Shown here: in pieces, positions 3,362-26,547 of the stretch
How the letters are laid out: each line of letters starts with the position of its first letter
Numbering within the stretch: position 1 is the first letter of the stretch
Source of the DNA: an uncultured Gemmatimonas sp.
GTDB lineage: Bacteria; Gemmatimonadota; Gemmatimonadetes; Gemmatimonadales; Gemmatimonadaceae
Assembly (NCBI GenBank): GCA_964416005.1
Contig: CAYQCP010000006.1
Coordinates: 20,082-84,081, forward strand
DNA: 64,000 nt
Direction: 5' to 3'
The notes under the pieces: model-generated
The model's database searches: none
Told to the model about the DNA's origin: nothing
Seen by the model: the letters and a program-made list of their open reading frames with translations, nothing else
Translations under genes and position numbers: made by a program

Positions 3362-4384
3362 CTACGTCGTCGAGCGTGGTGCCGTTGCGGCAAAATGCGC
3401 GGCGAGAGAGAGCAAGGACTCAGTCACTCGGATGATGAACTGCGCTTCCGCTCGAGAGTACGTCATCGGCGCACCGAAGTCGTGATGAGCATCAACTGCA
3501 AGCTGTTTCAGTTTGGTGACAATACCGGCGTACTCTCCGCCGCGCCTTCCGCTCGCCGACCGTTCGAACAACGCTTTGAGGGCATCAATGCCCTTTCCGG
3601 CTTCATGCTCATGACCCGCGGCCTCCAGAACCTTGCGGCACTGTCCGACCGCATCATCGTACTCTCCGGCCCGTACCTTCTCTCTGGCCTCGCGGACGAA
3701 CGCGAGCCCACGTTTGAAGTATTCGCGCTCGCCCGGTCCGTACTGAATCTCCAGGACCTCGAACTCACTGCTGCCGGCCGCTCGGAGAAAATCAAGCCAC
3801 GTTTCTCGCGGAACCAGCAACTCAATGTTCGGGACCTGGCAGTGCAGCCGCCCCTCGGCGGCCACGAGCACTGGCCACAGCGTCACAAGGAACCGAGGGG
3901 CAGCTCCGTTTCTGCGGCGTTCAATCTGTTCCAGTCTCCCGGCATCGAGATCGCAGCAGCACGCCACGACAGTTTCAGCGCCGGTACTCGACGATTGGAC
4001 GGCACGTCGATCACCGCACCATGAAAGGGGCCCAACCGCATCCTGTTCTGGACCGAGACGCAATTCCCCATAAAGATCAGTCATCGCGTAATTCTGAAGC
4101 TGCTGGACACCCTGCATAGCGCTCGGTGCGACGTCGCGAAGTCCGACGCTGACCTTCAGAACAAGCCGAGGGTACAGTGCCGGGTCCGCGTGGAGCGCGT
4201 TGACTCTGATCCGTCCGACAATTGTCGAGTTGACCACTACCTCTGCTTCACCGAAGCTTGGCATTCTCAGTCCGAGAGAGCGAGTCAGTTGTGATAGAAC
4301 ACCCAGCTGAAGCTGATCGACGGAGGTCCGCGGCCACGACTTCTGCCATAGCCGGCGCGACGCCCGAGTTGCCGTGGGCGGCAC
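3362..4384 (-). CDS. Hypothetical 340-aa protein; N-terminal ~200 aa unrecognised, C-terminal helices DUF4145-like
   Basis: Long ORF starting 6 nt downstream of the preceding gene. I recognise no catalytic motif. C-terminal helices FVREAREKVRAGEYDDAVGQCRKVLEA and LKQLAVDAHHDFGAPMTYSRAEAQFIIRVTESLL resemble the DUF4145 pattern found in RM/Abi proteins (by memory only). Confidence 0.6.
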   Translation of the reverse strand: MPPTATRASRRLWQKSWPRTSVDQLQLGVLSQLTRSLGLRMPSFGEAEVVVNSTIVGRIRVNALHADPALYPRLVLKVSVGLRDVAPSAMQGVQQLQNYAMTDLYGELRLGPEQDAVGPLSWCGDRRAVQSSSTGAETVVACCCDLDAGRLEQIERRRNGAAPRFLVTLWPVLVAAEGRLHCQVPNIELLVPRETWLDFLRAAGSSEFEVLEIQYGPGEREYFKRGLAFVREAREKVRAGEYDDAVGQCRKVLEAAGHEHEAGKGIDALKALFERSASGRRGGEYAGIVTKLKQLAVDAHHDFGAPMTYSRAEAQFIIRVTESLLSLAAHFAATAPRSTT

Positions 4385-4390
4385 CGCTTC

Positions 4391-5032
4391 TTACCCGGGT
4401 CGCGCGCGCCATCGTCTGATCGCCTCGATGTACTCGATCACCGGCATAAAATTCAACTCCTCATCACTAAAACCGGCGTCCTTCCGTTCATCGTAGAAGG
4501 CAGACGCAAAGTCCGTGAACCGATACCAGAGGACCGTAGGGCTTGGGGCGTCTTTCACCCCTGCGGTCTCTAGAAACCAATCTCGCACCACACGAACGAG
4601 CAGTGTGGGAGAGGACCGGTGATGCTTGATGTCCACGCCCGAGATGTCCGAGAGTGCGCGCCGATAGTCATACGGTTCCGTATCGAGAATGAGTACCCGC
4701 TTCGTCCGGAATCGTGTGCCGCCGAACAGCTGGGCGCCATGATCGACGCCAAGTTCAAATGGAAGATTGAATCGCGCAAACTCCCCAGCCGCCGTTGCGG
4801 TCGGTCGCGAGATGTCATGAATGCTGTTACGTGACGCCCGGATGAGCGCAGCTATCTTATCGAGGCGATTCTCACTACTATCGGAGCGCTCCGTGGCAAT
4901 GCGGGGAGTGAATCCGAGGTCTAGGATCGTGAACAGGAGGGGCCGAAGCAGCGGAACGTACTCGTGATCGAAAGGACAGTTGATGAAAACGTTCCTTTCG
5001 AAGTCTTGCATCCTCGTCGAAACGTGCTTCAC
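4391..5032 (-). CDS. Nucleoside 2-deoxyribosyltransferase/TIR-like (flavodoxin-fold) protein
   Basis: NVFINCPFDHEY (beta1-type start), RLDKIAALIRASRNSIHDIS, and FNLPFELGVDHGA...KRVLILDTE, which resembles the D.G..FE.G catalytic-Glu motif of the NDT/DrHyd/TIR-like superfamily. The ATG overlaps the upstream stop (ATGA at 5029-5032). Confidence 0.6.
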   Translation of the reverse strand: MKHVSTRMQDFERNVFINCPFDHEYVPLLRPLLFTILDLGFTPRIATERSDSSENRLDKIAALIRASRNSIHDISRPTATAAGEFARFNLPFELGVDHGAQLFGGTRFRTKRVLILDTEPYDYRRALSDISGVDIKHHRSSPTLLVRVVRDWFLETAGVKDAPSPTVLWYRFTDFASAFYDERKDAGFSDEELNFMPVIEYIEAIRRWRARPG

Positions 5033-5262
5033 CTCTTGTCGCGAGGCGGCAAGGGATCATGTCCATGCGAGTCCTTGTCGCGAATCGTTCCGTCGCGGCG
5101 ATGGATCACGAGTTCGCTCTTCTCGTTCCTGCTGACTGAGCGAGCCCAGTCGACGGCCTTTCCCTGCGTCGAGAAGTGCTTCGAGGCCCGTTCAGCGCCA
5201 GCCTTCTTGACGTTCCATCCGCCATCAGGCGCCGGAACCACGTGCTGCGACTTCTTCGTCAT
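5029..5262 (-). CDS. DUF2188-family small protein
   Basis: MTKKSQHVVPAPDGGWNVKKAGAERASKHFSTQGKAVDWARSVSRNEKSELVIHRRDGTIRDKDSHGHDPLPPRD matches the DUF2188 pattern (hvvp..dgW.vk..g..ra...f.tq..A...Ar......el.iH..dG.i...dsyg.DP.pp.D). Confidence 0.75.
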   Translation of the reverse strand: MTKKSQHVVPAPDGGWNVKKAGAERASKHFSTQGKAVDWARSVSRNEKSELVIHRRDGTIRDKDSHGHDPLPPRDKR

Positions 5263-18559: not shown

Positions 18560-19963
18560 CTAACCCCAGAGTGACCGATTCACCTGCTGCATGCTGGCGC
18601 TGCTGCAGAATACGCAATTTGCGTCTGTCATTCGTCGCCGACGGCGAGACGCGAGAGGCGGCCGCCAGGCGCTGACGCTCCAGTAGTTGTCGCTTAATGG
18701 AGGACCACTCGTCAGTCGCCGGGCCAACTCCAGGGCGAGCAATGTGCCGGCGAGCGCACTGATGAAGGCGAAGGGCGCCAAGACGCGTTCGTCCGCCGTC
18801 GCCGCCAGCGCTCCCGATGCGCACAGCTGCTTGAACAGCGTGTCGTAGGCCGTTCCCTCGATATCGGTGCTGACAAGGTGCGGGTGACGTTTCGCAATCC
18901 GAGCGGCGGCCCGCGGACTGATTCGTGATTCGCGAACATCCGTCACAGTGACATCGAGATGGTCCGCGATATGTTGTTCAAGCGAATACTCCGCTTCGTC
19001 GGCGCGGTAGATACACGCCAAGCAGGCGGCCGTCGTCGGTTGGCGGTGATGGTGGATGACGACCTCGTGAATGCCGGTGGTCGAGGCATCGAACACCTCG
19101 CCTGGACACTCATTCTGCAGCTCGCGTCGCGCGCGACGACTATCAACCGCCACGATGAGACGAGGTAACCATGCGCCATGCGTCTTCATTGGAAGGTTCT
19201 GGAGCCGCGCCCTGTAGCCCCGAAGCGTCAATTGCGCGAAGTCCGCGCGCGCCTTCTCGGCGAGACACAGAGCCTTCGCTTGGCCGATATCGGGCGGATT
19301 GAAGTAGAGCTGTCGATTCAGATTACCTGACGCCACGACATCGTCGTCCGCGATGACCAACTCTCCGGACACCGGGAGATGCCGAAGCGCCCAGAGAAAT
19401 CCGTTTCCGATGGCGCCCGCGCCTGCCAGATACGCGGTCCCCACATCAAACGGGGTGGCAAGTTGCGCGTCGTCGAGCCCTACCACGGCGAACGACAGAC
19501 GAAACGGCAGGCGCAGCGGCACCGGACCCGATTGCGGCACGGTTTCGGGCAGAAGCGCGCGGAAGGCGGCCGCCGCGATGTAACACGCCGCGAGCGCGAC
19601 GTAGGGTCGCGACACGGGAACGTCGAGAGCCGCGGGGAGCTTCGCGCCGTCGATCGTGAGGCCCGCACGATCGAGGACCGCGAATCGGCGTGGTGCCGTG
19701 CTCCTCGGTGTGGTCGCTCCCACAACGACCTCAAGATCCGGCACGAAGCCCTCAGACGTCATGCTGACCTGGGTCACGGAACGAGCCAACAACTCGATCA
19801 CGTCCTGCGCGAGGGCGACGGCGGTCGCATCGCTCGCGGGAGCGGTGACCAGCACATTGCGGTCCAGCGTGCGCTCGGCCTCATCGACGCTGAGTCCGGC
19901 AGCGCGGGCGAGCGTGCGGGCATTCTCTGATCGGGCCTCCTGCGTCAGGAGAGATCCAGGCAT
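18560..19963 (-). CDS. E1-like ThiF/MoeB-family adenylating enzyme (BilD-like)
   Basis: YLAGAGAIGNGFLWAL (Rossmann GxGxxG), NLNRQ, DSRRAR, and the CxxC pairs CLACIY and CVFCSS. About 190 aa of N-terminal extra domain. Start at MPGSLLT (19963). Confidence 0.85.
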   Translation of the reverse strand: MPGSLLTQEARSENARTLARAAGLSVDEAERTLDRNVLVTAPASDATAVALAQDVIELLARSVTQVSMTSEGFVPDLEVVVGATTPRSTAPRRFAVLDRAGLTIDGAKLPAALDVPVSRPYVALAACYIAAAAFRALLPETVPQSGPVPLRLPFRLSFAVVGLDDAQLATPFDVGTAYLAGAGAIGNGFLWALRHLPVSGELVIADDDVVASGNLNRQLYFNPPDIGQAKALCLAEKARADFAQLTLRGYRARLQNLPMKTHGAWLPRLIVAVDSRRARRELQNECPGEVFDASTTGIHEVVIHHHRQPTTAACLACIYRADEAEYSLEQHIADHLDVTVTDVRESRISPRAAARIAKRHPHLVSTDIEGTAYDTLFKQLCASGALAATADERVLAPFAFISALAGTLLALELARRLTSGPPLSDNYWSVSAWRPPLASRRRRRMTDANCVFCSSASMQQVNRSLWG

Positions 19964-20406
19964 GTGTCCACCTCCCGTGCGGGCACCGCACACCACACAT
20001 TGCGGGCGTTCAGGCGGAAGACCTTCACGTCGTCCGCGAAGGTCCGGTCATCCGTGTTGACCGCGAACTGGGGCAGGACCAGCGAGAGCGCCCCTTCATG
20101 GCGAATGATGGCCCATGTATCATCCGCGACTGAATGGAACGCGTCGCGCGGATGCGTGTGCACCTGGGCTGCCACCATCAATCGTTCACGTCGAAGGTGC
20201 GCCGTGAGCTCGCGCATGCTCGCTGGCGGAATCCGGAAGAGATCCGCGCGCGCTTCCTGCATTGGCCGATAGCATTCGGTGACCACGATGGAGTCTCCCG
20301 CTCGTCGACCAAGCCAAAGCACCACGCACTCCACGCGCGTGCGTCCCGTCTCCTGAAGTACTGCGAGCGTTATCGCGCGCAGCGACGCGTTCACCCGGAC
20401 TCGCAT
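19945..20406 (-). CDS. JAB/MPN (JAMM) metalloprotease (BilC-like)
   Basis: ECVVLWLGRR (conserved Glu) and QVHTHPRDAFHSVADD (HxH...S..D). The ATG at 20406 shares one nucleotide with the E2 stop. Confidence 0.85.
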   Translation of the reverse strand: MRVRVNASLRAITLAVLQETGRTRVECVVLWLGRRAGDSIVVTECYRPMQEARADLFRIPPASMRELTAHLRRERLMVAAQVHTHPRDAFHSVADDTWAIIRHEGALSLVLPQFAVNTDDRTFADDVKVFRLNARNVWCAVPAREVDTCLDLS

Positions 20407-20843
20407 CAGCCGGCTCCTTTTCGCCAGGCGCGCCAAAGCTGTGTCAGTAATCCGCCAAGCGAGTATTCGTCCAGTGTCTTCAACGGTTCCCACGGATCAT
20501 TCAAATGGCTCGGATGGCAGTGGTACTCGCGCGACCCGCGCATGCAAACGAAGGGTCGACCCGTCGTGGGATGTGGACTGTTGTTGAACACGCCGGTGGG
20601 GTTCGGCAGGAGTTGCGATAGCGCCGTCCCCGTCGCGTCGAGGAGTGCGATGGACGCGGGCGTGTCATTCCAATCGTCGCACGTCAATCGCACGCGGAGC
20701 GTCGTGCGCCCGGCGGCCGCAAAGGAACAATCAAGATCGGGGAACTCCTGGGTATGCAAGATCCAGCCGCGCTGCGCGAGGAGCGACGCTGGAATGCGCG
20801 CGACCTCCTCGCGAAAGCGGGCTTTGGCAGCTTCGGGGTGCAC
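20406..20843 (-). CDS. E2-like ubiquitin-conjugating protein (BilB-like)
   Basis: SPHPTTGRPFVCMRG resembles the E2 HPN-x(n)-G-x-x-C active-site loop. GTG start at 20843 lies 2 nt after the Ubl stop and is preceded by GGGGGAGGG. The track uses a TTG at 20876. Confidence 0.7.
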   Translation of the reverse strand: MHPEAAKARFREEVARIPASLLAQRGWILHTQEFPDLDCSFAAAGRTTLRVRLTCDDWNDTPASIALLDATGTALSQLLPNPTGVFNNSPHPTTGRPFVCMRGSREYHCHPSHLNDPWEPLKTLDEYSLGGLLTQLWRAWRKGAG

Positions 20844-20845
20844 GG

Positions 20846-21157
20846 CTACCCTCCCCCGCCTTCCGGGGGGCCCCAATCCAGCTCCACCCGTCCCTGGAGG
20901 TGGTTCTCGAGGTAACTCCTCGCGGGATCCACCTGACGCAGGCCGCCATCATCGGAGACCGTGACAAGCCACCCGTCGGTGCTCGTGAGGTGCAGGGCGA
21001 GCGCCGCTGCCTTGAGCACGACCGACACTTTCTGGTGCGGCGGAATCTCCTGGTACCCTTCCTCGGGATAGAGTCCGGCGGTCGTGGAAACCGAGACCTG
21101 TACCTTCTCGGCCCGCTCGACAGCCGCGTTCAGTTGGGACTGCGCAAGATCGCTCAC
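20846..21157 (-). CDS. Ubiquitin-like beta-grasp protein ending in Gly-Gly (BilA-like)
   Basis: 103 aa, beta-rich (VQVSVSTTAGLY...WLVTVSDDGGLRQV...RVELDW). The C-terminus ...PPEGGGG is immediately followed by the stop. First gene of the operon. Confidence 0.7.
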   Translation of the reverse strand: MSDLAQSQLNAAVERAEKVQVSVSTTAGLYPEEGYQEIPPHQKVSVVLKAAALALHLTSTDGWLVTVSDDGGLRQVDPARSYLENHLQGRVELDWGPPEGGGG

Positions 21158-21192
21158 GGAACCTCCGACGCTGAATGATGGTACTGTAGTTT

Positions 21193-21256
21193 ATGGCCAG
21201 TTTATACATATGTCAATGGCCAGATTTCACACTATTTATCTTGCGTTATGGGCCAA
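21193..21256. promoter_or_regulatory. Three ATGGCCA-type repeats in a divergent promoter (candidate RHH operator)
   Basis: TTATGGCCAGTTTA (21191-), CAATGGCCAGATTT (21214-) and TTATGGGCCAATTG (21246-) lie in the low-GC gap between the Bil operon and the RHH gene. Confidence 0.4.
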
Positions 21257-21294
21257 TTGTTGTTACCTTTCAGGTCGCTCACAGGGGGGGACGT

Positions 21295-21504
21295 ATGGAT
21301 CGCCGACAGATGACGCTGATGCTAAGCGACCGCGAAATGACGGTGCTCGACGAGCTCTCTGCGCGCCGTGGGATGTCGAAGACCGCGCTCGTTCGTCAGG
21401 CGCTGAGGCTCTATCAGTCGATCACTGAGCGCATTGCCTCCGGCGACAAGCTCTTCATGGAACACCCGCACACGAAGGAGAAGGCAGAGCTCGTCGTGCT
21501 ATGA
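21295..21504 (+). CDS. Ribbon-helix-helix (CopG/Arc-type) protein
   Basis: MDRRQMTLMLSDREMTVLDELSARRGMSKTALVRQALRLY. ATG preceded by GGGGGGGA. Confidence 0.8.
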   Translation: MDRRQMTLMLSDREMTVLDELSARRGMSKTALVRQALRLYQSITERIASGDKLFMEHPHTKEKAELVVL

Positions 21505-22142
21505 CGGAGTTGATCAGCGTCGTCCCGCTCTACAATCGACTGACGGGCGCGTTTGAGGAAGCTCGACTCTACCAGCCGGTCGATCGCTCACATCTCGATG
21601 ACTTCGATGCCCGCTGGATGCCAGAGTTCGATCGGCGATTCGAAGCTCACGCGGCCCGCGGCGGCCGCGGCATCCCCGAGCAACTCCAGGATTGTCGCTG
21701 GGACTGGCGCGACTTGGTCGAGAAGTACGCCCGACGGCTTGATTACGAGTCGTTTGCCCTTGAGTGCGCAGGAAGCACCCAAGGGCTGCTCCTGGTGGCC
21801 ACGGCGGCGTTTGGTCGCGCCCCCGGGAACATGGGCCTTGAGATCGTCTATGTTGATCGCCTCGCGACGGCGCCGTGGAACCGGCTCGGTGGCGCACGAC
21901 CGCCGGTGTACAAGGGAGTCGGTCGCATCTTGTTGATCGCCGCCATGAGCTTGAGCGATGAATTGGGATTCCACCGACGTCTGGGATTGCACGCCTTGCC
22001 GCAGGCGGAGTCGTGGTACCGAGAGGTGTGCGGCATGGAAGATCTCGGTCCGGATCGCGCCTATGCGAACCTCTGCTACTTCGAAATGACGGAAACCCAA
22101 GCCGCGGCCTTCGTGGCCGAGGACGAGGAAGGCACCGCATGA
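21501..22142 (+). CDS. GNAT-family acetyltransferase-like protein
   Basis: LEIVYVDRLATAPWNR...YKGVGRILLIAAMSLSDELGFHRRLGLHALPQAESWY (acetyl-CoA-binding-type segment). ATGA overlap with the RHH stop. Confidence 0.7.
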   Translation: MTELISVVPLYNRLTGAFEEARLYQPVDRSHLDDFDARWMPEFDRRFEAHAARGGRGIPEQLQDCRWDWRDLVEKYARRLDYESFALECAGSTQGLLLVATAAFGRAPGNMGLEIVYVDRLATAPWNRLGGARPPVYKGVGRILLIAAMSLSDELGFHRRLGLHALPQAESWYREVCGMEDLGPDRAYANLCYFEMTETQAAAFVAEDEEGTA

Positions 22143-22660
22143 GACTGATTGTGTCGAAGGAGTGGCTGCGTCGACGCATCGCGTCGGATCCTGACATGGA
22201 AACCGACGCGGGGCTTTCCGTGGCCCGTCTCGACGGCCTGATCGCCGATGCCGTCGCTCCGCACGGAGTGCCGGGCGTACGCTCCGGGTCCACGGAGGAC
22301 CCACGGGCCCTTCGCCTTGCGCTCGCTCGTGTGGTGAAAGCGCTGCGCGTCCAATCTCACGCAACCGTGCAGGCCCTGGCCGAGCGCCTCGATGTGGAAC
22401 CTGCGGACCTGAAGGGACTCGAGGAGGACCCGGCGTTTATCGTTCCGCCCCGCACGCTCTCGTTGGTGGCAAAGCACTTTCAACTCCCAGTGAGCGAGGT
22501 TGCGATGCTCGCAGGTGCGACGCGGGTGACGGATCGCACCCTGGCTGACAATGCGCTAAAGTTCGCGGCGCGATCCGCCACGCTCAGCGACGTCGACGAC
22601 GAGGGTCGCGAAGCGCTCTTCGCCTTCGTCCGGTTTCTCACCGAACGTACCCACCGATGA
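22139..22660 (+). CDS. HTH (XRE-like) DNA-binding protein
   Basis: Internal ATG at 22139 (ATGA overlap). LARVVKALRVQSHATVQALAERLDVEPADLKGLEED. Confidence 0.7.
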   Translation: MRLIVSKEWLRRRIASDPDMETDAGLSVARLDGLIADAVAPHGVPGVRSGSTEDPRALRLALARVVKALRVQSHATVQALAERLDVEPADLKGLEEDPAFIVPPRTLSLVAKHFQLPVSEVAMLAGATRVTDRTLADNALKFAARSATLSDVDDEGREALFAFVRFLTERTHR

Positions 22661-23589
22661 GCCTCGACGCGCCCGTGGTTGGTGTGCGCGAGCGCCGGTC
22701 CATTGCAGATGCCGTGGCGCGCGTCCTTCAGGATCTGGGAACGCCGGAGCCGCCGCTCAAGCTCGAAGACGTGCGGCAGCTGCTGGCGCTCGACCTGCAG
22801 TACTATGACGGTTCCGACCGGAGCGTCATCAAGGCGTTTACGCACCAGTACCGGCTGTTCGCCAAGAAACGGCTTCCGGCCCTCGGCGCCAAACTGCAGC
22901 AGACGCTACGACAGTCGAAGCTGTTAGCGTTCTGGGTGCCGGACGGTAAGCGCGTTTTGATCGACGAGAGCGCGCCGAAGCCGAAGCATCGATGGATCGA
23001 AGGGCACGAGATCGCGCACAGCCTGACGGACTGGCATCGTGATTTCCTATTGGGCGACATCGCCGCGACACTCGATCCGCAGTGCCATGCGACCATCGAA
23101 GCAGAAGCGAACTATGGTGCGGGACAGCTCCTCTTCTTGCATGATCGCTTCGGCCGTGAAGCACGAGACCTGCCCGCGACGTTCTCCTCCGTCCAGCTGT
23201 TGGCCGGCCGCTACGCCAACTCCATCACCTCCACCCTGTGGCGCTTCGTGGAGCAGCGGAATCCCAGTGGGGCGTCGTTCGGCATGATCAGTGTGCACCC
23301 GAACGTCCCCACGATCGGCGCGCACGATGGCCCTGACCCGTGGCGCTATTTCATCCGGTCGGCTGCCTTCCAAACTCAGTTCTCTCATGTCACGGCGCAC
23401 GACGCGTATCGCATTCTCTCGACGCACGCGACCTATCAGCGCCGCGGCCCGATTCTCGAGATCGAGACGCGACTGCGTGACGTGAACGGGGTTGGGTGGC
23501 ACTTCAGCGTTGAGTCGTTCTGCAACTCGCATGCGGTGCTGACGCTGGGAGTCGCTGTTGCTCCCGTCGCGTCACGCGTCGCGGGATAA
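22657..23589 (+). CDS. ImmA/IrrE-like zinc metallopeptidase
   Basis: WIEGHEIAHSLTDWH (HExxH) and IEAEANYGAGQLLF. ATGA overlap with the upstream HTH gene. Confidence 0.8.
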   Translation: MSLDAPVVGVRERRSIADAVARVLQDLGTPEPPLKLEDVRQLLALDLQYYDGSDRSVIKAFTHQYRLFAKKRLPALGAKLQQTLRQSKLLAFWVPDGKRVLIDESAPKPKHRWIEGHEIAHSLTDWHRDFLLGDIAATLDPQCHATIEAEANYGAGQLLFLHDRFGREARDLPATFSSVQLLAGRYANSITSTLWRFVEQRNPSGASFGMISVHPNVPTIGAHDGPDPWRYFIRSAAFQTQFSHVTAHDAYRILSTHATYQRRGPILEIETRLRDVNGVGWHFSVESFCNSHAVLTLGVAVAPVASRVAG

Positions 23590-23733: not shown

Positions 23734-24195
23734 TCAACGGAGCGGTTCCCTCAGGCATGCCAGTACGGCGTCGTAGAGCGGCTGATGTAGAACCGTCCAC
23801 CGATAGGGCCAGCCGAATGCCTCGCAGATGGCGGCGGCAACGGACCTGCTTCGGCTCACTCCAGCGTGGCAGTGGAGGAGCATCTGAGGCGCACGTCGGT
23901 GTGTTCGCACAAAGGCGGCGATGGCCGCGGCTGGCAGGCGCACATCTACGCCTGGCTCCAAGTTGCCGTGGAGGTCGACATCTTCGATCTCCAGCGACAG
24001 TATCGACTTCCAACCAGACCGAAACGTCGTCCGTTCCATGCCTGGCGCTCGGATCGAGATCACCACGCCGCGATGCACCGGCCTCGCATGCGCGGCCTCA
24101 TCTCTTGAGAGCACGCGGACCAACGGCACGCCTCGAGGGCGACGTCCGTGCCAGAGCGGTCCATCTTCGCTCAACATCCGTTCGAGTGACGTCAT
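23734..24195 (-). CDS. Cys-based protein phosphatase (dual-specificity/PTP-like)
   Basis: P-loop LLHCHAGVSRSRSVAAAI (HCxxGxxRS). Confidence 0.65.
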   Translation of the reverse strand: MTSLERMLSEDGPLWHGRRPRGVPLVRVLSRDEAAHARPVHRGVVISIRAPGMERTTFRSGWKSILSLEIEDVDLHGNLEPGVDVRLPAAAIAAFVRTHRRAPQMLLHCHAGVSRSRSVAAAICEAFGWPYRWTVLHQPLYDAVLACLREPLR

Positions 24196-24431: not shown

Positions 24432-25895
24432 TCATTTCGTTCCGGCGCGGTCTGGCCAACGCTTCGGCACGGATGCCACAACCGGTTCCGAAGTCCTCAC
24501 ATCACTCATCTTCGTCCGCACCGCATTCCGTGCCTCCTTCGCTCGCCCGAGAAGTTCCCGATTCTCGCGGTCTCTATAGACGCGATTACGTGTCTCGCGG
24601 CTGTTCGCCCCGATCTTCTCGAGGAGCAGGTCATCCTCGTAGTGAAGGGCTGCGACGTCTATCATCGTGCGGCGCACACCGTACCAACCGCGGCCCGGCA
24701 CTGGAGTGATTCCCACGTGCTTCTCGAGCTCGTGAAAGGCGTCAAGTGCGGACCGCCGATTCCAGCGCGACAATCGCTTTCGCGGGGTGATGATGCCCCC
24801 GCGCAGCTTTCCACCGGGAAAGAGCGGGTAGTCCTGCCGGGCTGCCATCTGGAACTCTCGTTCCAGCTTGCACAGATACCCCGACGCGAGAATCGCGCGT
24901 ATCCGCTCTCCCTGGGCGTCGTCGAGCTCGATGTCCGTGCCCGGTTTGCTGCCTTGCTGCGGAATGTGCAGCGTGAATCGGAAACTCGCACCCCGCCGCT
25001 CGGTGTTGAGGTCGGTTCGATTGCACGCCAGCAGCTGCCCCAGGCGAAGTTCAGCACCAACGTCGAACAACAACTTGAAGCGTGGGTCGCCGTATTCGTC
25101 CGCGGCGCGAAGGAGTTTCGCAATATCGGCAGCTTCGTGACGAGGTCGACGGGGAGTATGCTTCTGTTTGAATTGCTTTTCCCACGCGCGGCCGAGCTGG
25201 GCATGCCAGTCCTTAGGCACGAGCACATGGTCTCTGGACACGCGACCGCTTTCCACGAGCCACCGCGCGATCTTCGTCAGCGCGGCCACTGCGATTTCCA
25301 GCGACCGTGGGCTCGGTGTCGGAGACGGGACGGACGAGGGTGCCGCGTCAGCGGTCAACCGCGCCAGGTGCTGTCTGGCGCTCGCTGCAATCCAAGCAGT
25401 GACGCCTGCCATCACATCGTCGGAACGTACAGCGTCCCAAAGGGAATCGCCGGGCAGGAAGTCCTTGGCGAGGCGGCGCACGAGGCGCGCAGCGTCTGCA
25501 TGCTGTCGCGCAGCGCCGAGGTAGACACCGCCTGGGTCCGTAGCGAGTGCAATCTCGACACCTTCGCGGAGCGTGAGTGCCGCGAAGACCTGCCCCCTCC
25601 AAGTCCCCGCCCGAACCGCCGCCAATCGCGCGGACTGTGCGTTCGCGATTTCCCGTGCTCGCTCGATCTTCGCTTCCACCAGTTCACCCTTGGCGTCGCG
25701 GATCGTGAGCGCCACTCGGACCTTCACCCGCCGATCTCGACCGCTGCGACGCGGATCGGAGTAGCGAAGCTGTAGTCTCCCGGATCGATCGGCACGCTCC
25801 TCAATGATGACACGCGCGCCGTGCGCACCGCAGGAATAGCGGAACGGGGCGGCGCGCGCGGCGCGGCGCGCGCGAACGCCCAAGCGTCGCGTCAC
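24432..25895 (-). CDS. Tyrosine recombinase / phage-type integrase
   Basis: C-terminal catalytic region GRGWYGVRRTMIDVA...NRVYRD. N-terminal arm-type segment RLQLRYSDPRRSGRDRRVKV. GTG start at 25895 overlaps the upstream stop (GTGA). The track ORF extends to 26369. Confidence 0.85.
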   Translation of the reverse strand: MTRRLGVRARRAARAAPFRYSCGAHGARVIIEERADRSGRLQLRYSDPRRSGRDRRVKVRVALTIRDAKGELVEAKIERAREIANAQSARLAAVRAGTWRGQVFAALTLREGVEIALATDPGGVYLGAARQHADAARLVRRLAKDFLPGDSLWDAVRSDDVMAGVTAWIAASARQHLARLTADAAPSSVPSPTPSPRSLEIAVAALTKIARWLVESGRVSRDHVLVPKDWHAQLGRAWEKQFKQKHTPRRPRHEAADIAKLLRAADEYGDPRFKLLFDVGAELRLGQLLACNRTDLNTERRGASFRFTLHIPQQGSKPGTDIELDDAQGERIRAILASGYLCKLEREFQMAARQDYPLFPGGKLRGGIITPRKRLSRWNRRSALDAFHELEKHVGITPVPGRGWYGVRRTMIDVAALHYEDDLLLEKIGANSRETRNRVYRDRENRELLGRAKEARNAVRTKMSDVRTSEPVVASVPKRWPDRAGTK

Positions 25896-26290
25896 GAGGT
25901 CCTTCCGCGCTGGGATCGGCTGCTCGTGAGGAAAGCCTGAAGCGCCGGCATGCTGACGCGATATTGCTTCCCGGCGCGCTCGGCCTCGAGATTCTTCTGG
26001 CGAATCTGCCAGCGCACGGCCTCGTCCGATACACCGAGCCTCGCGGCCACCTCCGCGACCGTCAGCCAGGCCTCTTCGGCGGCTGCCTGCTGGAAGGCGC
26101 GGTCCATTTCGCGGCAAACTCCCTGCAGCGTCTCTACCATCGGGTTGCTCGGGTTTAGCTCGTGCGCCGCCTCGGCCAGTTGACGAAGTCGGTTTGCGAG
26201 ATCGCGCATGGGTGCGGCGGCAATGACGGAGGGCCCTGGCGGGCGCGATTGTTTCATTGGTCTTTCCCCTGACACCTGGACGCGGTGCAC
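25892..26290 (-). CDS. Excisionase/MerR-like HTH protein (start uncertain)
   Basis: WLTVAEVAARLGVSDEAVRWQIRQKNLEAERAGKQYRVSMPALQAFL. Immediately upstream of the integrase and coupled to it. Confidence 0.6.
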   Translation of the reverse strand: MHRVQVSGERPMKQSRPPGPSVIAAAPMRDLANRLRQLAEAAHELNPSNPMVETLQGVCREMDRAFQQAAAEEAWLTVAEVAARLGVSDEAVRWQIRQKNLEAERAGKQYRVSMPALQAFLTSSRSQRGRTS

Positions 26291-26547
26291 TGGCCGCAGC
26301 CTCGATGGATTGGGAAAGAGCGTCCGGGCTCGCGCGTCCGCACCGGCGACATCCGCCGCGTACGGTCACCGCATTTCTCCCGCCGCCTTACTGAGTGGTC
26401 ACAACGGACCCGCACGCCGACATGAAGACGGTCCATGTCAATGTTGTAGCGTGCTGACGTGCCGAGTGTCAGCCAGCCGTAGCCTGGTCGGCGGCGCCTC
26501 TGCGGCCGCAGCTTGGGTCGATCTTGCGTTCCCGTCGACGGGCGATG

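What the first reader, a model, noticed from the sequence alone, without database searches (positions are those of the whole stretch)
21295..23589. Four translationally coupled genes: RHH - GNAT - HTH - ImmA-like peptidase
Seen in sequence: all three junctions are ATGA overlaps (21501, 22139, 22657). The cassette is preceded by three ATGGCCA-type repeats. Established knowledge: RHH+GNAT pairs form type II TA systems in which the toxin acetylates aminoacyl-tRNA (TacAT/KacAT type). HTH+ImmA pairs are protease-cleavable repressor switches (ImmR/ImmA). Inference: fusing both logics into one operon suggests a TA-like or Abi-like module whose release is controlled by a metallopeptidase. Alternatively it is the lysis-lysogeny-type switch of the integrase element, carrying a GNAT passenger. 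At 213 aa the GNAT is longer than classical TacT-type toxins (160-175 aa as I recall them) and does not look TacT-like to me.
Basis: partly seen in the sequence, partly recalled or inferred. Interest (0 to 1): 0.6.

Follow-up and report, generated by a model that had tools for sequence, protein, structure and literature searches.

The report
Four-gene GNAT/protease switch beside defence operon
The four overlapping genes are a real, widely shared and apparently undescribed control cassette: a small DNA-binding protein, an unannotated acetyltransferase-fold enzyme and a damage-sensing repressor/protease pair that sit next to, and probably switch on, bacterial anti-phage operons.

Summary
Four ORFs (21295-23589, + strand) are joined by three ATGA overlaps. 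They encode a CopG-type RHH, a 213-aa GNAT-fold protein with no Pfam, NCBIfam or PADLOC match, an Xre-HTH protein and an IrrE/CapP-type metallopeptidase.

The same order recurs in about 65 of the 80 fetched genome loci, across many phyla and on plasmids. It lies divergent from Type II Bil (as here), Type II Bub, CBASS or other defence operons.

- Palindromic hexamers bracket the defence promoter. They are TGGCCA in this clade and TAGCTA elsewhere, and the core changes along with the RHH beta-strand.
- The invariant core is RHH + GNAT + a ~30-residue N-terminal motif (MKLxxSKEW...EIGAG). This motif follows the GNAT gene in 86 of 86 loci, whatever is fused behind it.
- The peptidase tracks the defence operon, while the RHH-GNAT-motif trio also stands alone among housekeeping genes.

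Best reading: a CapH/CapP-like DNA-damage switch built onto a tripartite, toxin-antitoxin-like GNAT core. GNAT toxicity is unproven. It is not a TacT/AtaT family member, and it is not the switch of the nearby integrase. I found no description of it in the CapH/CapP, Bub or CapK/CapS papers. The scan has not noted it on other DNA.

The parts
21193..21223 (.). Operator repeats 1 and 2 (ATGGCCAG, palindromic core TGGCCA at 21194-21199 and 21217-21222). They bracket a sigma70-like promoter on the - strand (TTGACA at 21216-21211, TAAACT ending at 21188) that faces the Bil operon.
   Evidence: Direct repeat D2. Promoter scan. The block TGGCCA...TGTCAATGG is invariant in six loci of this clade. Hexamer enrichment and its switch to TAGCTA in the other RHH clade.
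21248..21257 (.). Third, imperfect repeat (ATGGGCCAAT). It lies in the spacer of a weak candidate promoter for the RHH operon (TTGCGT 21241-21246, 17 nt, TACCTT 21264-21269).
   Evidence: Sequence read. Relatives carry the repeat in the same position, for example L012 TTGCTT-N17-TAGTAT. The promoter assignment is an inference; the scan tool did not call it.
21295..21504 (+). CopG-type ribbon-helix-helix protein (69 aa). The beta-strand is MTLMLS. A conserved ~25-aa C-terminal tail (GDKLFMEH..TKEKAELVVL) follows the RHH domain. Probable operator-binding repressor.
   Evidence: Pfam RHH_1 3e-6. The profile's best PDB hit is CopG 2cpg at 4e-5; 30 of 32 members hit RHH_1 and none hits DUF1778. It is the most conserved of the four proteins, 62% mean identity. 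The tail alone is kept as a 24-aa ORF in L004.
21501..22142 (+). Divergent GNAT-fold acyltransferase ('GNATL', 213 aa), a family without annotation. The motifs (APWN bulge, YKGVGR loop, RxGLH, AxxxYxxxG[FM] with invariant Y173) look catalytically intact.
   Evidence: No Pfam, NCBIfam or PADLOC hit. AF2 pLDDT 95. Foldseek returns only GNATs, with TA toxins GmvT/AtaT/TacT3/KacT best by E-value and RimJ/PA3270-like proteins best by TM-score. Invariant columns. 2082 clusters at 50% identity, all about 200-225 aa among the top 150.
22139..22225 (+). N-motif: the first ~29 codons of the HTH gene (MRLIVSKEWLRRRIASDPDMETDAG). This GNAT-linked peptide module is absent from the 107-residue CapH construct described in bioRxiv 10.1101/2022.04.27.489752.
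   Evidence: Alignment A3. An ORF starting with this motif follows GNATL in 86 of 86 loci: 82 by HMM and 4 by eye. The C-terminal partner varies: HTH+CTD, nothing, an RHH-like sequence by eye, HTH+M78, or a peptidase-like domain.
22139..22660 (+). CapH/DdrO-like Xre-HTH repressor (173 aa): N-motif, variable linker, HTH (about residues 60-125), and a C-terminal helical domain with a conserved FAAR segment.
   Evidence: Pfam HTH_31 weak, PADLOC HTH_VI 2e-5. The profile hits SinR, CapH N-domain 7t5u (1e-5) and DdrO.
22657..23589 (+). IrrE/PprI/CapP-type zinc metallopeptidase (310 aa). HEIAH at 117-121; E150 lies 29 residues after H121, the same spacing as H100-E129 in CapP; near-invariant C143; C-terminal GAF/PAS-like domain.
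   Evidence: PADLOC capP 3e-11. Profile against PDB: IrrE 2e-5, CapP 7t5t 3e-3. AF2 pLDDT 86. Foldseek: PprI-ssDNA 8sln 7.7e-9, IrrE 3dti, CapP 7t5t 8e-7 over about 300 columns. CapP residue numbers are from bioRxiv 10.1101/2022.04.27.489752.
18560..21157 (-). Divergent target operon: Ubl (20846-21157), CEHH/Y4jH-like E2 (20406-20876), JAB (19945-20493) and E1-N+ThiF E1 (18560-19996). This is a Type II Bil-like ubiquitin-like conjugation system.
   Evidence: Pfam Metal_CEHH, Prok-JAB, E1-N and ThiF. PADLOC BilC 3e-14 and BilD 9e-10. The same operon sits beside the same cassette in L005, L013, L014, L019, L047 and L077.

Best explanation
The four genes form one mobile control cassette. It represses itself and the divergently transcribed defence operon (here a Type II Bil ubiquitin-like system) and releases both on DNA damage or phage attack.

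Shown by comparison:
- The order RHH - GNAT - HTH - peptidase is conserved across phyla and lies next to Bil, Bub, CBASS and other defence operons.
- Palindromic hexamer repeats bracket the defence promoter.
- The HTH and peptidase are of the CapH/CapP (DdrO/IrrE) type.
- The GNAT is always flanked by a CopG-type RHH that carries a conserved C-terminal tail, and by a protein that begins with a conserved ~30-residue N-motif.

Inferred mechanism:
- RHH dimers bind the hexamers (TGGCCA here).
- The GNAT is held in a complex by the RHH tail and by the N-motif of the HTH repressor.
- The peptidase is activated, as in CapP and PprI, by single-stranded DNA. It cleaves the HTH protein, which derepresses the Bil operon and the cassette.

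My favoured further step is that the RHH-GNAT-N-motif trio is in origin a self-contained tripartite toxin-antitoxin-like unit. The GNAT would be the acetyl-CoA-dependent effector and the N-motif the neutralising peptide, so that cleavage also frees GNAT activity. Its substrate is unknown and need not be aminoacyl-tRNA.

Rough odds: control cassette of the neighbouring operon about 0.8; GNAT physically tied to both partner peptides about 0.65; GNAT a growth-inhibiting toxin or effector about 0.4.
For: Conservation and context:
- The same four genes lie beside a Type II Bub operon in Mesorhizobium and beside a Bil-like operon in a metagenome.
- 365 relatives were found in 185,579 species genomes. 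In the best 80 loci the order recurs about 65 times, and the RHH-GNAT 4-nt overlap occurs in about 65 of 83.
- Neighbouring operons include CBASS types I and III, a Cap17-like system, an MBL operon and a NurA/SbcCD-like operon.

Census of the 80 loci:
- Defence operon and separate peptidase: 54.
- Defence operon without a separate peptidase: 3. In two of these the N-motif protein is itself fused to a peptidase-type domain: an HExxH peptidase in L075 and a peptidase-like region, judged by eye, in L060.
- No defence operon and no peptidase: 17.
- No defence operon but a peptidase: 6.

Operator:
- TAGCTA occurs 82 times in 68 distinct upstream regions, against 0.019 expected per 160 nt.
- TGGCCA occurs 14 times in the 8 loci whose RHH strand is MTLMLS, with no TAGCTA.
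- In the window the repeats abut the -35 and -10 of the promoter facing Bil.

CapH/CapP type. The ssDNA-activated cleavage mechanism is taken from bioRxiv 10.1101/2022.04.27.489752 and 10.64898/2026.05.16.725639.

GNAT core:
- Fold and intact motifs.
- N-motif ORF after the GNAT gene in 86 of 86 loci, with varying fusion partners.
- In L004 the RHH C-terminal tail is retained without the RHH domain.
- Free-standing trios lie among housekeeping genes and on a 29-kb plasmid.
- 55 plasmid records carry relatives, and distribution among relatives is patchy, 1 of 40.

Precedents: three-component COG2856-Xre-toxin systems and GNAT-RHH / GNAT-Xre pairs predicted in PMC2701414; the DNA-damage-gated VapKSC toxin module described in PMC13373217.
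Against: - No experiment supports any step, and no complex model could be made.
- The GNAT has no sequence relationship to TacT/AtaT/KacT. Its E-values to TA toxins barely beat those to ordinary GNATs, and its best TM-scores are to RimJ/PA3270-like protein acetyltransferases.
- The family is near-neutral to acidic, median pI 6.0. From memory, the tRNA-acetylating toxins are basic.
- The RHH is the most conserved protein of the four, which is unusual for an antitoxin.
- The hexamer/RHH-strand switch is a single clade event, so it does not prove that the RHH rather than the HTH reads the hexamer.
- Some short N-motif ORFs look like recent deletion products. L068 is nearly identical to L070 up to the break.
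- The census rests on my own HMM labels for related, non-independent loci.
Confidence: 0.5

Rival explanations
1. Purely regulatory cassette. The GNAT is not toxic. It acts as a bridge or co-repressor between the RHH and HTH repressors, or it acetylates one of them (or a cellular signal protein) to tune repression. The only output is transcription of the neighbouring defence operon.
For: - Nearly all peptidase-bearing cassettes sit beside a defence operon whose promoter carries the operator.
- The best TM-scores are to protein N-acetyltransferase-like GNATs (RimJ 6c37, PA3270 1yre, Ard1 2x7b).
- The family pI is acidic to neutral.
- The very N-terminus of the partner protein (MKL...) is its most conserved part, as would suit a substrate or docking peptide.
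- The RHH is more conserved than the GNAT.
Against: - The trio RHH-GNAT-N-motif persists without any HTH domain, peptidase or defence operon. It is found among housekeeping genes and on a small plasmid, where there is nothing obvious to regulate but itself.
- Classical CapH/CapP works without such a component.
- No lysine is invariant in the N-motif.
Confidence: 0.3
2. Two independent known modules lie side by side by chance or by loose linkage: an ordinary RHH-GNAT (TacAT/KacAT-like) toxin-antitoxin pair and an ordinary CapH/CapP regulator pair.
For: - Each half resembles a known two-gene system.
- Defence islands accumulate TA modules (general knowledge).
Against: - The order and the overlaps are conserved across phyla.
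- The HTH protein carries an N-terminal motif absent from the CapH construct described in the preprint, and the motif stays with the GNAT when the HTH is lost or replaced.
- The RHH is CopG-type and not DUF1778, and the GNAT gets no NCBIfam or Pfam hit.
Confidence: 0.07
3. A small-molecule (for example antibiotic or toxin) resistance acetyltransferase under the control of RHH and Xre repressors, as Makarova et al. 2009 suggested for GNAT-RHH and GNAT-Xre pairs.
For: PMC2701414 raised this for GNAT-RHH/Xre operons. The GNAT motifs are intact.
Against: - The link to defence operons and to an ssDNA-type peptidase is tight.
- Two dedicated partner peptides are always present.
- The GNAT-RHH pairs that paper discussed were later shown to be toxins, as the PDB titles indicate.
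Confidence: 0.06
4. The lysis-lysogeny or excision switch (ImmR/ImmA-like) of the integrase-bearing element at 23.7-26.4 kb, with the GNAT as passenger.
For: An integrase-like ORF and a phosphatase lie just downstream on the other strand. ImmR/ImmA pairs do control ICE and prophage induction (discussion of the preprint).
Against: - No homologue of that integrase or phosphatase occurs in the 85 other loci.
- Viral contigs hold only 8 distant partial relatives.
- The operators flank the defence-operon promoter.
- The peptidase is the three-domain IrrE/CapP type.
Confidence: 0.02

Closest known systems
CapH + CapP (Lau et al. 2022, bioRxiv 10.1101/2022.04.27.489752; Calloji et al. 2026, bioRxiv 10.64898/2026.05.16.725639) and their Deinococcus relatives DdrO + IrrE/PprI
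   Same: - An Xre-HTH repressor with a C-terminal helical domain, followed by an HExxH peptidase with a central linker and a GAF-like end.
- Encoded next to Bil, Bub or CBASS operons. 31% of Bub operons are reported to carry CapH+CapP (PMC11601596).
- The His-to-Glu zinc-ligand spacing is the same as in CapP.
   Different: - The pair is preceded in the same operon by an RHH and a GNAT.
- The HTH protein has an extra conserved ~30-residue N-terminal motif plus a linker (about 165-173 aa, against the 107-residue CapH construct).
- The promoter carries RHH-style hexamer repeats.
- The conserved Cys (C143) lies 22 residues after the second His, not 13 as in the CapP cysteine switch, so its role is untested.
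- None of the four papers searched mentions a GNAT or an RHH.
GNAT-RHH type II toxin-antitoxin systems (TacAT, AtaRT, KacAT, GmvAT, ItaRT)
   Same: - A small RHH gene overlaps a downstream GNAT gene.
- The RHH has a C-terminal tail beyond the DNA-binding domain.
- These toxins are the best Foldseek E-values.
- Relatives occur on plasmids.
   Different: - No sequence-level membership.
- 213 aa with an added N-terminal strand and a long helix 1, against 149-180 aa PDB chains.
- The RHH is CopG/RHH_1, not DUF1778.
- A third obligatory partner (the N-motif protein) lies downstream.
- The family is acidic to neutral.
- Neither the target nor toxicity is known.
Three-component COG2856(peptidase)-Xre-toxin systems predicted by Makarova, Wolf & Koonin 2009 (PMC2701414), and the CapK/CapS-derived VapKSC module (PMC13373217)
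   Same: The logic is a toxin whose HTH partner is inactivated by a dedicated sensor enzyme responding to stress or DNA damage.
   Different: - Those predictions involve PIN or RelE (or VapC) toxins, and a kinase in VapKSC.
- Here the candidate effector is a GNAT, there is an additional RHH, and the unit also controls a neighbouring defence operon.
omega-epsilon-zeta and other tripartite TA systems (comparison from general knowledge)
   Same: An RHH repressor plus a separate neutralising peptide plus an enzyme toxin in one operon.
   Different: The gene order differs (RHH-enzyme-peptide), the enzyme class differs, and here the RHH tail also appears tied to the enzyme. None of this was tested.

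Membership tests
CapH/CapP (DdrO/IrrE-type) regulator pair | [quoted passage not shown] | tested here: met
   HEIAH at 117-121 and E150 at +29. Profile hits to IrrE 2e-5 and CapP 3e-3. The AF2 model aligns over about 300 columns with PprI 8sln, IrrE 3dti and CapP 7t5t.
CapH/CapP (DdrO/IrrE-type) regulator pair | Xre-type HTH repressor with a C-terminal oligomerisation domain, encoded just before the peptidase | tested here: met
   The profile hits CapH HTH 7t5u at 1e-5, plus SinR and DdrO. A conserved C-terminal helical segment is present. An ATGA overlap joins it to the peptidase gene. The extra N-terminal motif is not a CapH feature.
CapH/CapP (DdrO/IrrE-type) regulator pair | Encoded adjacent to, and controlling, an immune operon | tested here: inconclusive
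   Adjacency is met: 54 of 80 loci have a recognised defence operon together with the peptidase, and the window has Type II Bil. Control is inferred only from operators overlapping the promoter.
CapH/CapP (DdrO/IrrE-type) regulator pair | ssDNA-activated cleavage of the repressor | not testable with these tools
   Needs in vitro cleavage assays.
CapH/CapP (DdrO/IrrE-type) regulator pair | Cysteine-switch loop (present in 33% of CapP, so not obligatory) | tested here: inconclusive
   The 29-residue insert between H121 and E150 contains near-invariant C143. The Cys is offset relative to CapP C113, and this segment has the lowest pLDDT of the domain.
TacAT/AtaRT/KacAT-type GNAT-RHH toxin-antitoxin | Toxin belongs by sequence to the tRNA-acetylating GNAT toxin family | tested here: not met
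   No Pfam, NCBIfam or PDB sequence hit for the protein or its profile. Resemblance is at fold level only, TMq 0.40-0.50.
TacAT/AtaRT/KacAT-type GNAT-RHH toxin-antitoxin | Antitoxin of the DUF1778 RHH family with a C-terminal toxin-binding region | tested here: not met
   None of 32 members hits DUF1778 and 30 of 32 hit RHH_1. The best PDB match is CopG. A conserved C-terminal tail does exist, but its binding is untested.
TacAT/AtaRT/KacAT-type GNAT-RHH toxin-antitoxin | Toxicity by acetylation of aminoacyl-tRNA, neutralised by the antitoxin | not testable with these tools
   Needs expression and rescue experiments and tRNA acetylation assays.
GNAT superfamily (fold and acetyl-CoA site) | GNAT fold with beta-bulge, pyrophosphate loop and motif-B tyrosine | tested here: met
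   The AF2 topology runs b1-a1-a2-b2-b4-a3-b5-a4-b6-b7. All 245 Foldseek hits with E<=1e-3 that were listed are GNATs. Invariant A124, P125, N127, G141, R160, H164 and Y173. 18 of 47 members hit Acetyltransf_10.
ImmR/ImmA switch of ICEs and prophages | Linked to the integration/excision genes of a mobile element and controlling them | tested here: not met
   No homologue of the window's integrase occurs in 85 related loci. The family is rare and distant in viral contigs.

The most novel reading that the evidence does not exclude
A previously unrecognised family of tripartite GNAT toxin-antitoxin modules: a CopG-type RHH, a GNAT effector, and an N-motif neutralising peptide fused to interchangeable DNA-binding domains. 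This family has been co-opted, by adding a CapP-type ssDNA-sensing peptidase, into a dual-output immune switch. DNA damage or phage infection leads to cleavage of the N-motif-HTH protein. That cleavage both derepresses the neighbouring Bil, Bub or CBASS operon and unleashes the GNAT as a backup abortive-infection effector.
Probability: 0.3. Interest if true: 0.8.

Novelty: new variant of a known kind. Interest (0 to 1): 0.62.

Why it matters
- CapH/CapP-type regulators are one of three known families that switch on bacterial immune operons after DNA damage. A common four-gene version with an embedded enzyme would mean that part of this regulation has been overlooked. About a third of Bub operons are reported as CapH/CapP-associated.
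- It defines an unannotated GNAT family (about 2000 clusters at 50% identity), a new partner peptide motif and a simple palindromic operator. Each can be tested directly with standard assays.
- If the GNAT is a gated toxin, this would be a new effector/antitoxin arrangement and a link between TA modules and the control of immune operons.
- For annotation, it explains three 'hypothetical' genes next to many Bil, Bub and CBASS loci.

Tried and rejected
- Sequence libraries gave nothing for the GNAT: Pfam, NCBIfam and PADLOC, and a family profile against PDB sequences.
- The Lau et al. 2022 PMC record was not held; I read the preprint instead. The Bub paper's supplementary table is not held, so I could not check how its 168 'CapH+CapP' loci were scored.
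- I searched for natural fusions of the GNAT in 1.84 billion representatives. The top 150 are all about 200-225 aa, so there are no fusions among them to exploit.
- I considered co-folding the GNAT with its partners through in-frame read-through constructs (candidate loci). I dropped this because the structure tool returns no contacts or PAE. I used the second job on the peptidase instead.
- Viral contigs gave only 8 distant partial hits.
- The integrase-switch idea is rejected.
- The covariation between operator and RHH strand is one clade event.
- I considered proposing a cleavage site by analogy with CapH F82|R83 at the conserved FAAR segment. I left it as speculation because the following residue varies (R/K/H/Q).


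Full report
**1. The observation**

The window holds four same-strand ORFs:
- 21295-21504, 69 aa
- 21501-22142, 213 aa
- 22139-22660, 173 aa
- 22657-23589, 310 aa

The sequence shows ATGA start/stop overlaps at 21501, 22139 and 22657. A G-rich ribosome-binding stretch precedes the first ATG. The 137-nt AT-rich gap upstream contains two 16-nt direct repeats, ATGGCCAGTTTATACA and ATGGCCAGATTTCACA, starting 23 bp apart. A third, imperfect copy (TGGGCCA) lies at 21249-21255 (read).

**2. What the four proteins are**

*RHH.* It passes Pfam RHH_1 (3e-6). A family profile finds CopG as the closest solved protein (2cpg, 4e-5). Thirty of 32 members hit RHH_1 and none hits DUF1778, the TacA/AtaR antitoxin family.

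*GNAT.* It has no hit in Pfam, NCBIfam or PADLOC, and its family profile has no PDB sequence match.
- The AlphaFold2 model built on 47 homologues is confident (pLDDT 95). Foldseek returns only GNAT structures.
- The best E-values (4-7e-6) go to the TA toxins GmvT, AtaT, TacT3, KacT and 7byy. Ordinary GNATs follow within a factor of ten.
- The best TM-scores (0.53-0.57) belong to RimJ/PA3270-type proteins.
- Eighteen of 47 members weakly hit Acetyltransf_10.
- Invariant residues (A124, P125, N127, G141, R160, H164, Y173) map to the usual GNAT beta-bulge, pyrophosphate loop, strand 5 and motif-B tyrosine. That mapping is my inference from the model's secondary structure. The enzyme therefore looks active.
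- It is a GNAT, but not a member of the TacT/AtaT family.

*HTH.* Its profile hits SinR, the CapH HTH domain (7t5u, 1e-5) and DdrO.

*Peptidase.* It hits PADLOC capP (3e-11). Its profile hits IrrE (2e-5) and CapP (3e-3). Its model (pLDDT 86) aligns over about 300 columns with PprI bound to ssDNA, IrrE and CapP. So it has the three-domain peptidase-linker-GAF build. HEIAH (117-121) and E150 have the same His-to-Glu spacing as CapP H100-E129.

**3. Surroundings**

Divergently transcribed from the same gap are a Ubl, a CEHH/Y4jH-like E2, a JAB peptidase (PADLOC BilC, 3e-14) and an E1-N+ThiF E1 (BilD, 9e-10). An earlier scan note (e1-2964458) had filed this as a Type II Bil operon, and my hits agree. 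A sigma70-like promoter facing that operon (TTGACA 21216-21211, TAAACT ending at 21188) is bracketed by repeats 1 and 2. Repeat 3 sits in the spacer of a weak candidate promoter for the RHH operon; this is an inference, supported by the same layout in relatives.

**4. Related loci**

*First contexts.* Homologues of the GNAT sit in the same four-gene order next to a Type II Bub operon in Mesorhizobium and next to a Bil-like operon in a metagenome.

*Genome scan.* A scan of 185,579 species genomes found 365 relatives, and the best 80 loci were fetched. They come from Alpha-, Beta- and Gammaproteobacteria, Planctomycetota, Verrucomicrobiota, Latescibacterota, Acidobacteriota, Gemmatimonadota and others. 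I labelled their ORFs with HMMs grown from the window's proteins.

*Architecture.*
- RHH-GNAT-HTH-peptidase recurs in about 65 of the 80 loci.
- The RHH-GNAT junction is a 4-nt overlap in about 65 of 83 loci.

*Neighbouring operons.* They are Type II Bub (about 37), CEHH-type Bil (7), other E1+JAB Ubl operons (4), CBASS type III or I (6), an MBL operon and a NurA/SbcCD-like operon.

*Mobility.*
- Only 1 of 40 related genomes carries the family.
- Fifty-five plasmid records do.
- Viral contigs hold only 8 distant fragments.
- The window's integrase and phosphatase have no homologue in any other locus.

The cassette is therefore a mobile companion of defence operons, not part of the integrase element.

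**5. The operator**

The 140 nt upstream of the RHH gene carry repeated palindromic hexamers.
- In loci whose RHH beta-strand reads MTLNL[TS], the core is TAGCTA (with TAGCCA/TGGCTA variants). There are 82 perfect copies in 68 distinct regions against 0.019 expected per 160 nt. They are often spaced 11 bp apart and flank a TTGAC(A/T) -35 box that faces the defence operon.
- In the window's clade (strand MTLMLS, 8 loci), the core is TGGCCA. There are 14 copies and no TAGCTA.

A 6-bp palindrome repeated on one face of the helix is what a two-fold symmetric RHH dimer reads (established knowledge for the RHH repressors Arc, MetJ and CopG). I therefore assign the hexamers to the RHH. The strand/operator switch is a single clade event, so it does not exclude the HTH.

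**6. The invariant core**

*The N-motif.* The HTH protein differs from the CapH construct described in the preprint (107 residues). It has a conserved N-terminal motif, MKLxxSKEWxxxxxxxEGDxEIGAG, followed by a variable linker. An ORF beginning with this motif follows the GNAT gene in all 86 loci examined: 82 by HMM and four by eye. What is fused behind the motif varies:

| Fusion partner | Loci |
|---|---|
| HTH + C-terminal domain | 74 |
| Nothing (49-65 aa ORFs) | L004, L050, L053, L068, L079 |
| RHH-like sequence (judged by eye) | L028 |
| HTH + HExxH peptidase | L075 |
| Peptidase-like domain (judged by eye) | L060 |

*The RHH tail.* On the other side, the RHH carries a conserved ~25-residue tail (GxKLFFEx..TKEKAELMVL). 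L004 has lost the RHH domain but keeps a 24-codon ORF matching just this tail, and that ORF overlaps the GNAT start.

*Conservation.* In 53 complete cassettes the mean pairwise identities are RHH 62%, peptidase 48%, GNAT 46% and HTH 40%.

*Census*:

| | Separate peptidase | No separate peptidase |
|---|---|---|
| Defence operon recognised | 54 | 3 |
| No defence operon recognised | 6 | 17 |

Of the three loci with a defence operon but no separate peptidase, two have the N-motif protein itself fused to a peptidase-type domain (L075, L060) and one is cut by a contig end.

*Free-standing trios.* They lie among housekeeping genes such as chorismate synthase, ketol-acid reductoisomerase and an amino-acid permease. 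One sits on a 29-kb mobilisable Gemmobacter plasmid.

The peptidase therefore travels with the defence operon, while RHH-GNAT-N-motif is a unit in its own right.

**7. Mechanism**

*Shown by comparison:* the conserved cassette, its position, the operator, the CapH/CapP-type pair, and the obligatory GNAT partners.

*Inferred:* RHH dimers occupy the hexamers and, with the HTH protein, repress both promoters. The GNAT is tethered by the RHH tail and the N-motif. The peptidase cleaves the HTH protein when activated by ssDNA, as shown for CapP and PprI (and the 8sln title). Cleavage derepresses the Bil operon and the cassette.

*Favoured further step (about 0.4):* the trio is a tripartite TA-like module, and cleavage also frees the GNAT as an effector.
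- For it: the TA-like gene layout, autonomy, plasmid carriage, universal partner retention, best E-values to GNAT toxins, and precedents. The precedents are the three-component COG2856-Xre-toxin systems predicted in PMC2701414 and the DNA-damage-gated VapKSC module in PMC13373217.
- Against it: no family membership, acidic to neutral pI, a highly conserved RHH, and TM-scores that favour protein acetyltransferases.

*Main rival (0.3):* the GNAT is a non-toxic bridge or modifier within a purely transcriptional switch.

**8. Comparison with what is known**

The Bub paper reports CapH+CapP beside 168 of 544 Bub operons (PMC11601596). Neither it, nor the CapH/CapP preprints, nor the CapK/CapS paper mentions a GNAT or an RHH. 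Full-text searches combining these terms found nothing relevant. I therefore rate the cassette as a new variant of a known kind. It is a CapH/CapP-type controller built on an undescribed GNAT/RHH/N-motif core. It is not a member of the TacAT family and not an ImmR/ImmA element switch.

**9. Limits**

- All functional statements are inferences from sequence, fold and context.
- The loci are related to one another, so the counts are not independent events.
- The labels come from my own HMMs, spot-checked with Pfam.
- No complex structure or transcript data could be obtained.

Noticed in passing
window 24432-26369 (-): The long integrase-like ORF downstream has no Pfam hit at E<=0.1 and no homologue in the 85 related loci. 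Its C-terminal part looked tyrosine-recombinase-like to me by eye only.
   Followed up: partly
window 23734-24195 (-): A 153-aa protein with an HCHAGVSRS (CX5R) motif gives only a weak DSPc hit (0.007, below cut-off). It is convergent with the peptidase gene and is not linked to the cassette elsewhere.
   Followed up: partly
L095 (Gemmobacter aquarius plasmid NZ_CP028921.1) 5427-7178: On this 29-kb plasmid the RHH-GNAT-HTH trio, without a peptidase, is divergent from a small DUF2188 gene and lies next to a Vsr/MvaI restriction module. An earlier scan note reports a DUF2188 gene in a separate cassette at 3362-5262 of this window.
   Followed up: no
L039 10151-13241: Directly after the four-gene cassette come a second, fused HTH-M78 protein (361 aa), a 167-aa unknown and an AAA_21 (AbiEii-like) ATPase. 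This may be another protease-gated module in the same island.
   Followed up: no
L055 / L059 (Gemmatimonadota MAGs): The cassette lies between a divergent type III CBASS (CD-NTase, HORMA, TRIP13-like, SAVED) and a downstream Bub-like pair. One regulator may therefore serve an island holding two systems.
   Followed up: no
L085 405-7313 (-): A cassette-associated operon encodes a NurA-like protein, a 558-aa unknown, an SbcD_C-like protein and a 1017-aa SbcC/SMC-like ATPase. This is a candidate defence system that I did not classify.
   Followed up: no
L096 (Nostoc PCC 7120 plasmid beta) 3929-5028 and other cyanobacterial plasmids: Shorter, more distant GNATL relatives (about 150-190 aa, matching query residues 20/29-195) are common on Nostoc, Calothrix and Leptolyngbya plasmids. 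They have an overlapping downstream 179-aa gene and no annotated RHH. This may be a sister family.
   Followed up: no
L082 (record titled Leptospira interrogans LS0056): A full cassette with a Type II Bub operon lies in a contig labelled Leptospira. Its proteins align closely with the alphaproteobacterial copies (RHH alignment). The contig may be a contaminant or a recent transfer.
   Followed up: no
window 22657-23589, peptidase residues 55-90 and 131-140: The peptidase model has two low-confidence stretches: a helical N-terminal extension and the loop between HEIAH and E150 that holds near-invariant D134 and C143. The second may be a variant of the CapP autoinhibitory loop.
   Followed up: partly
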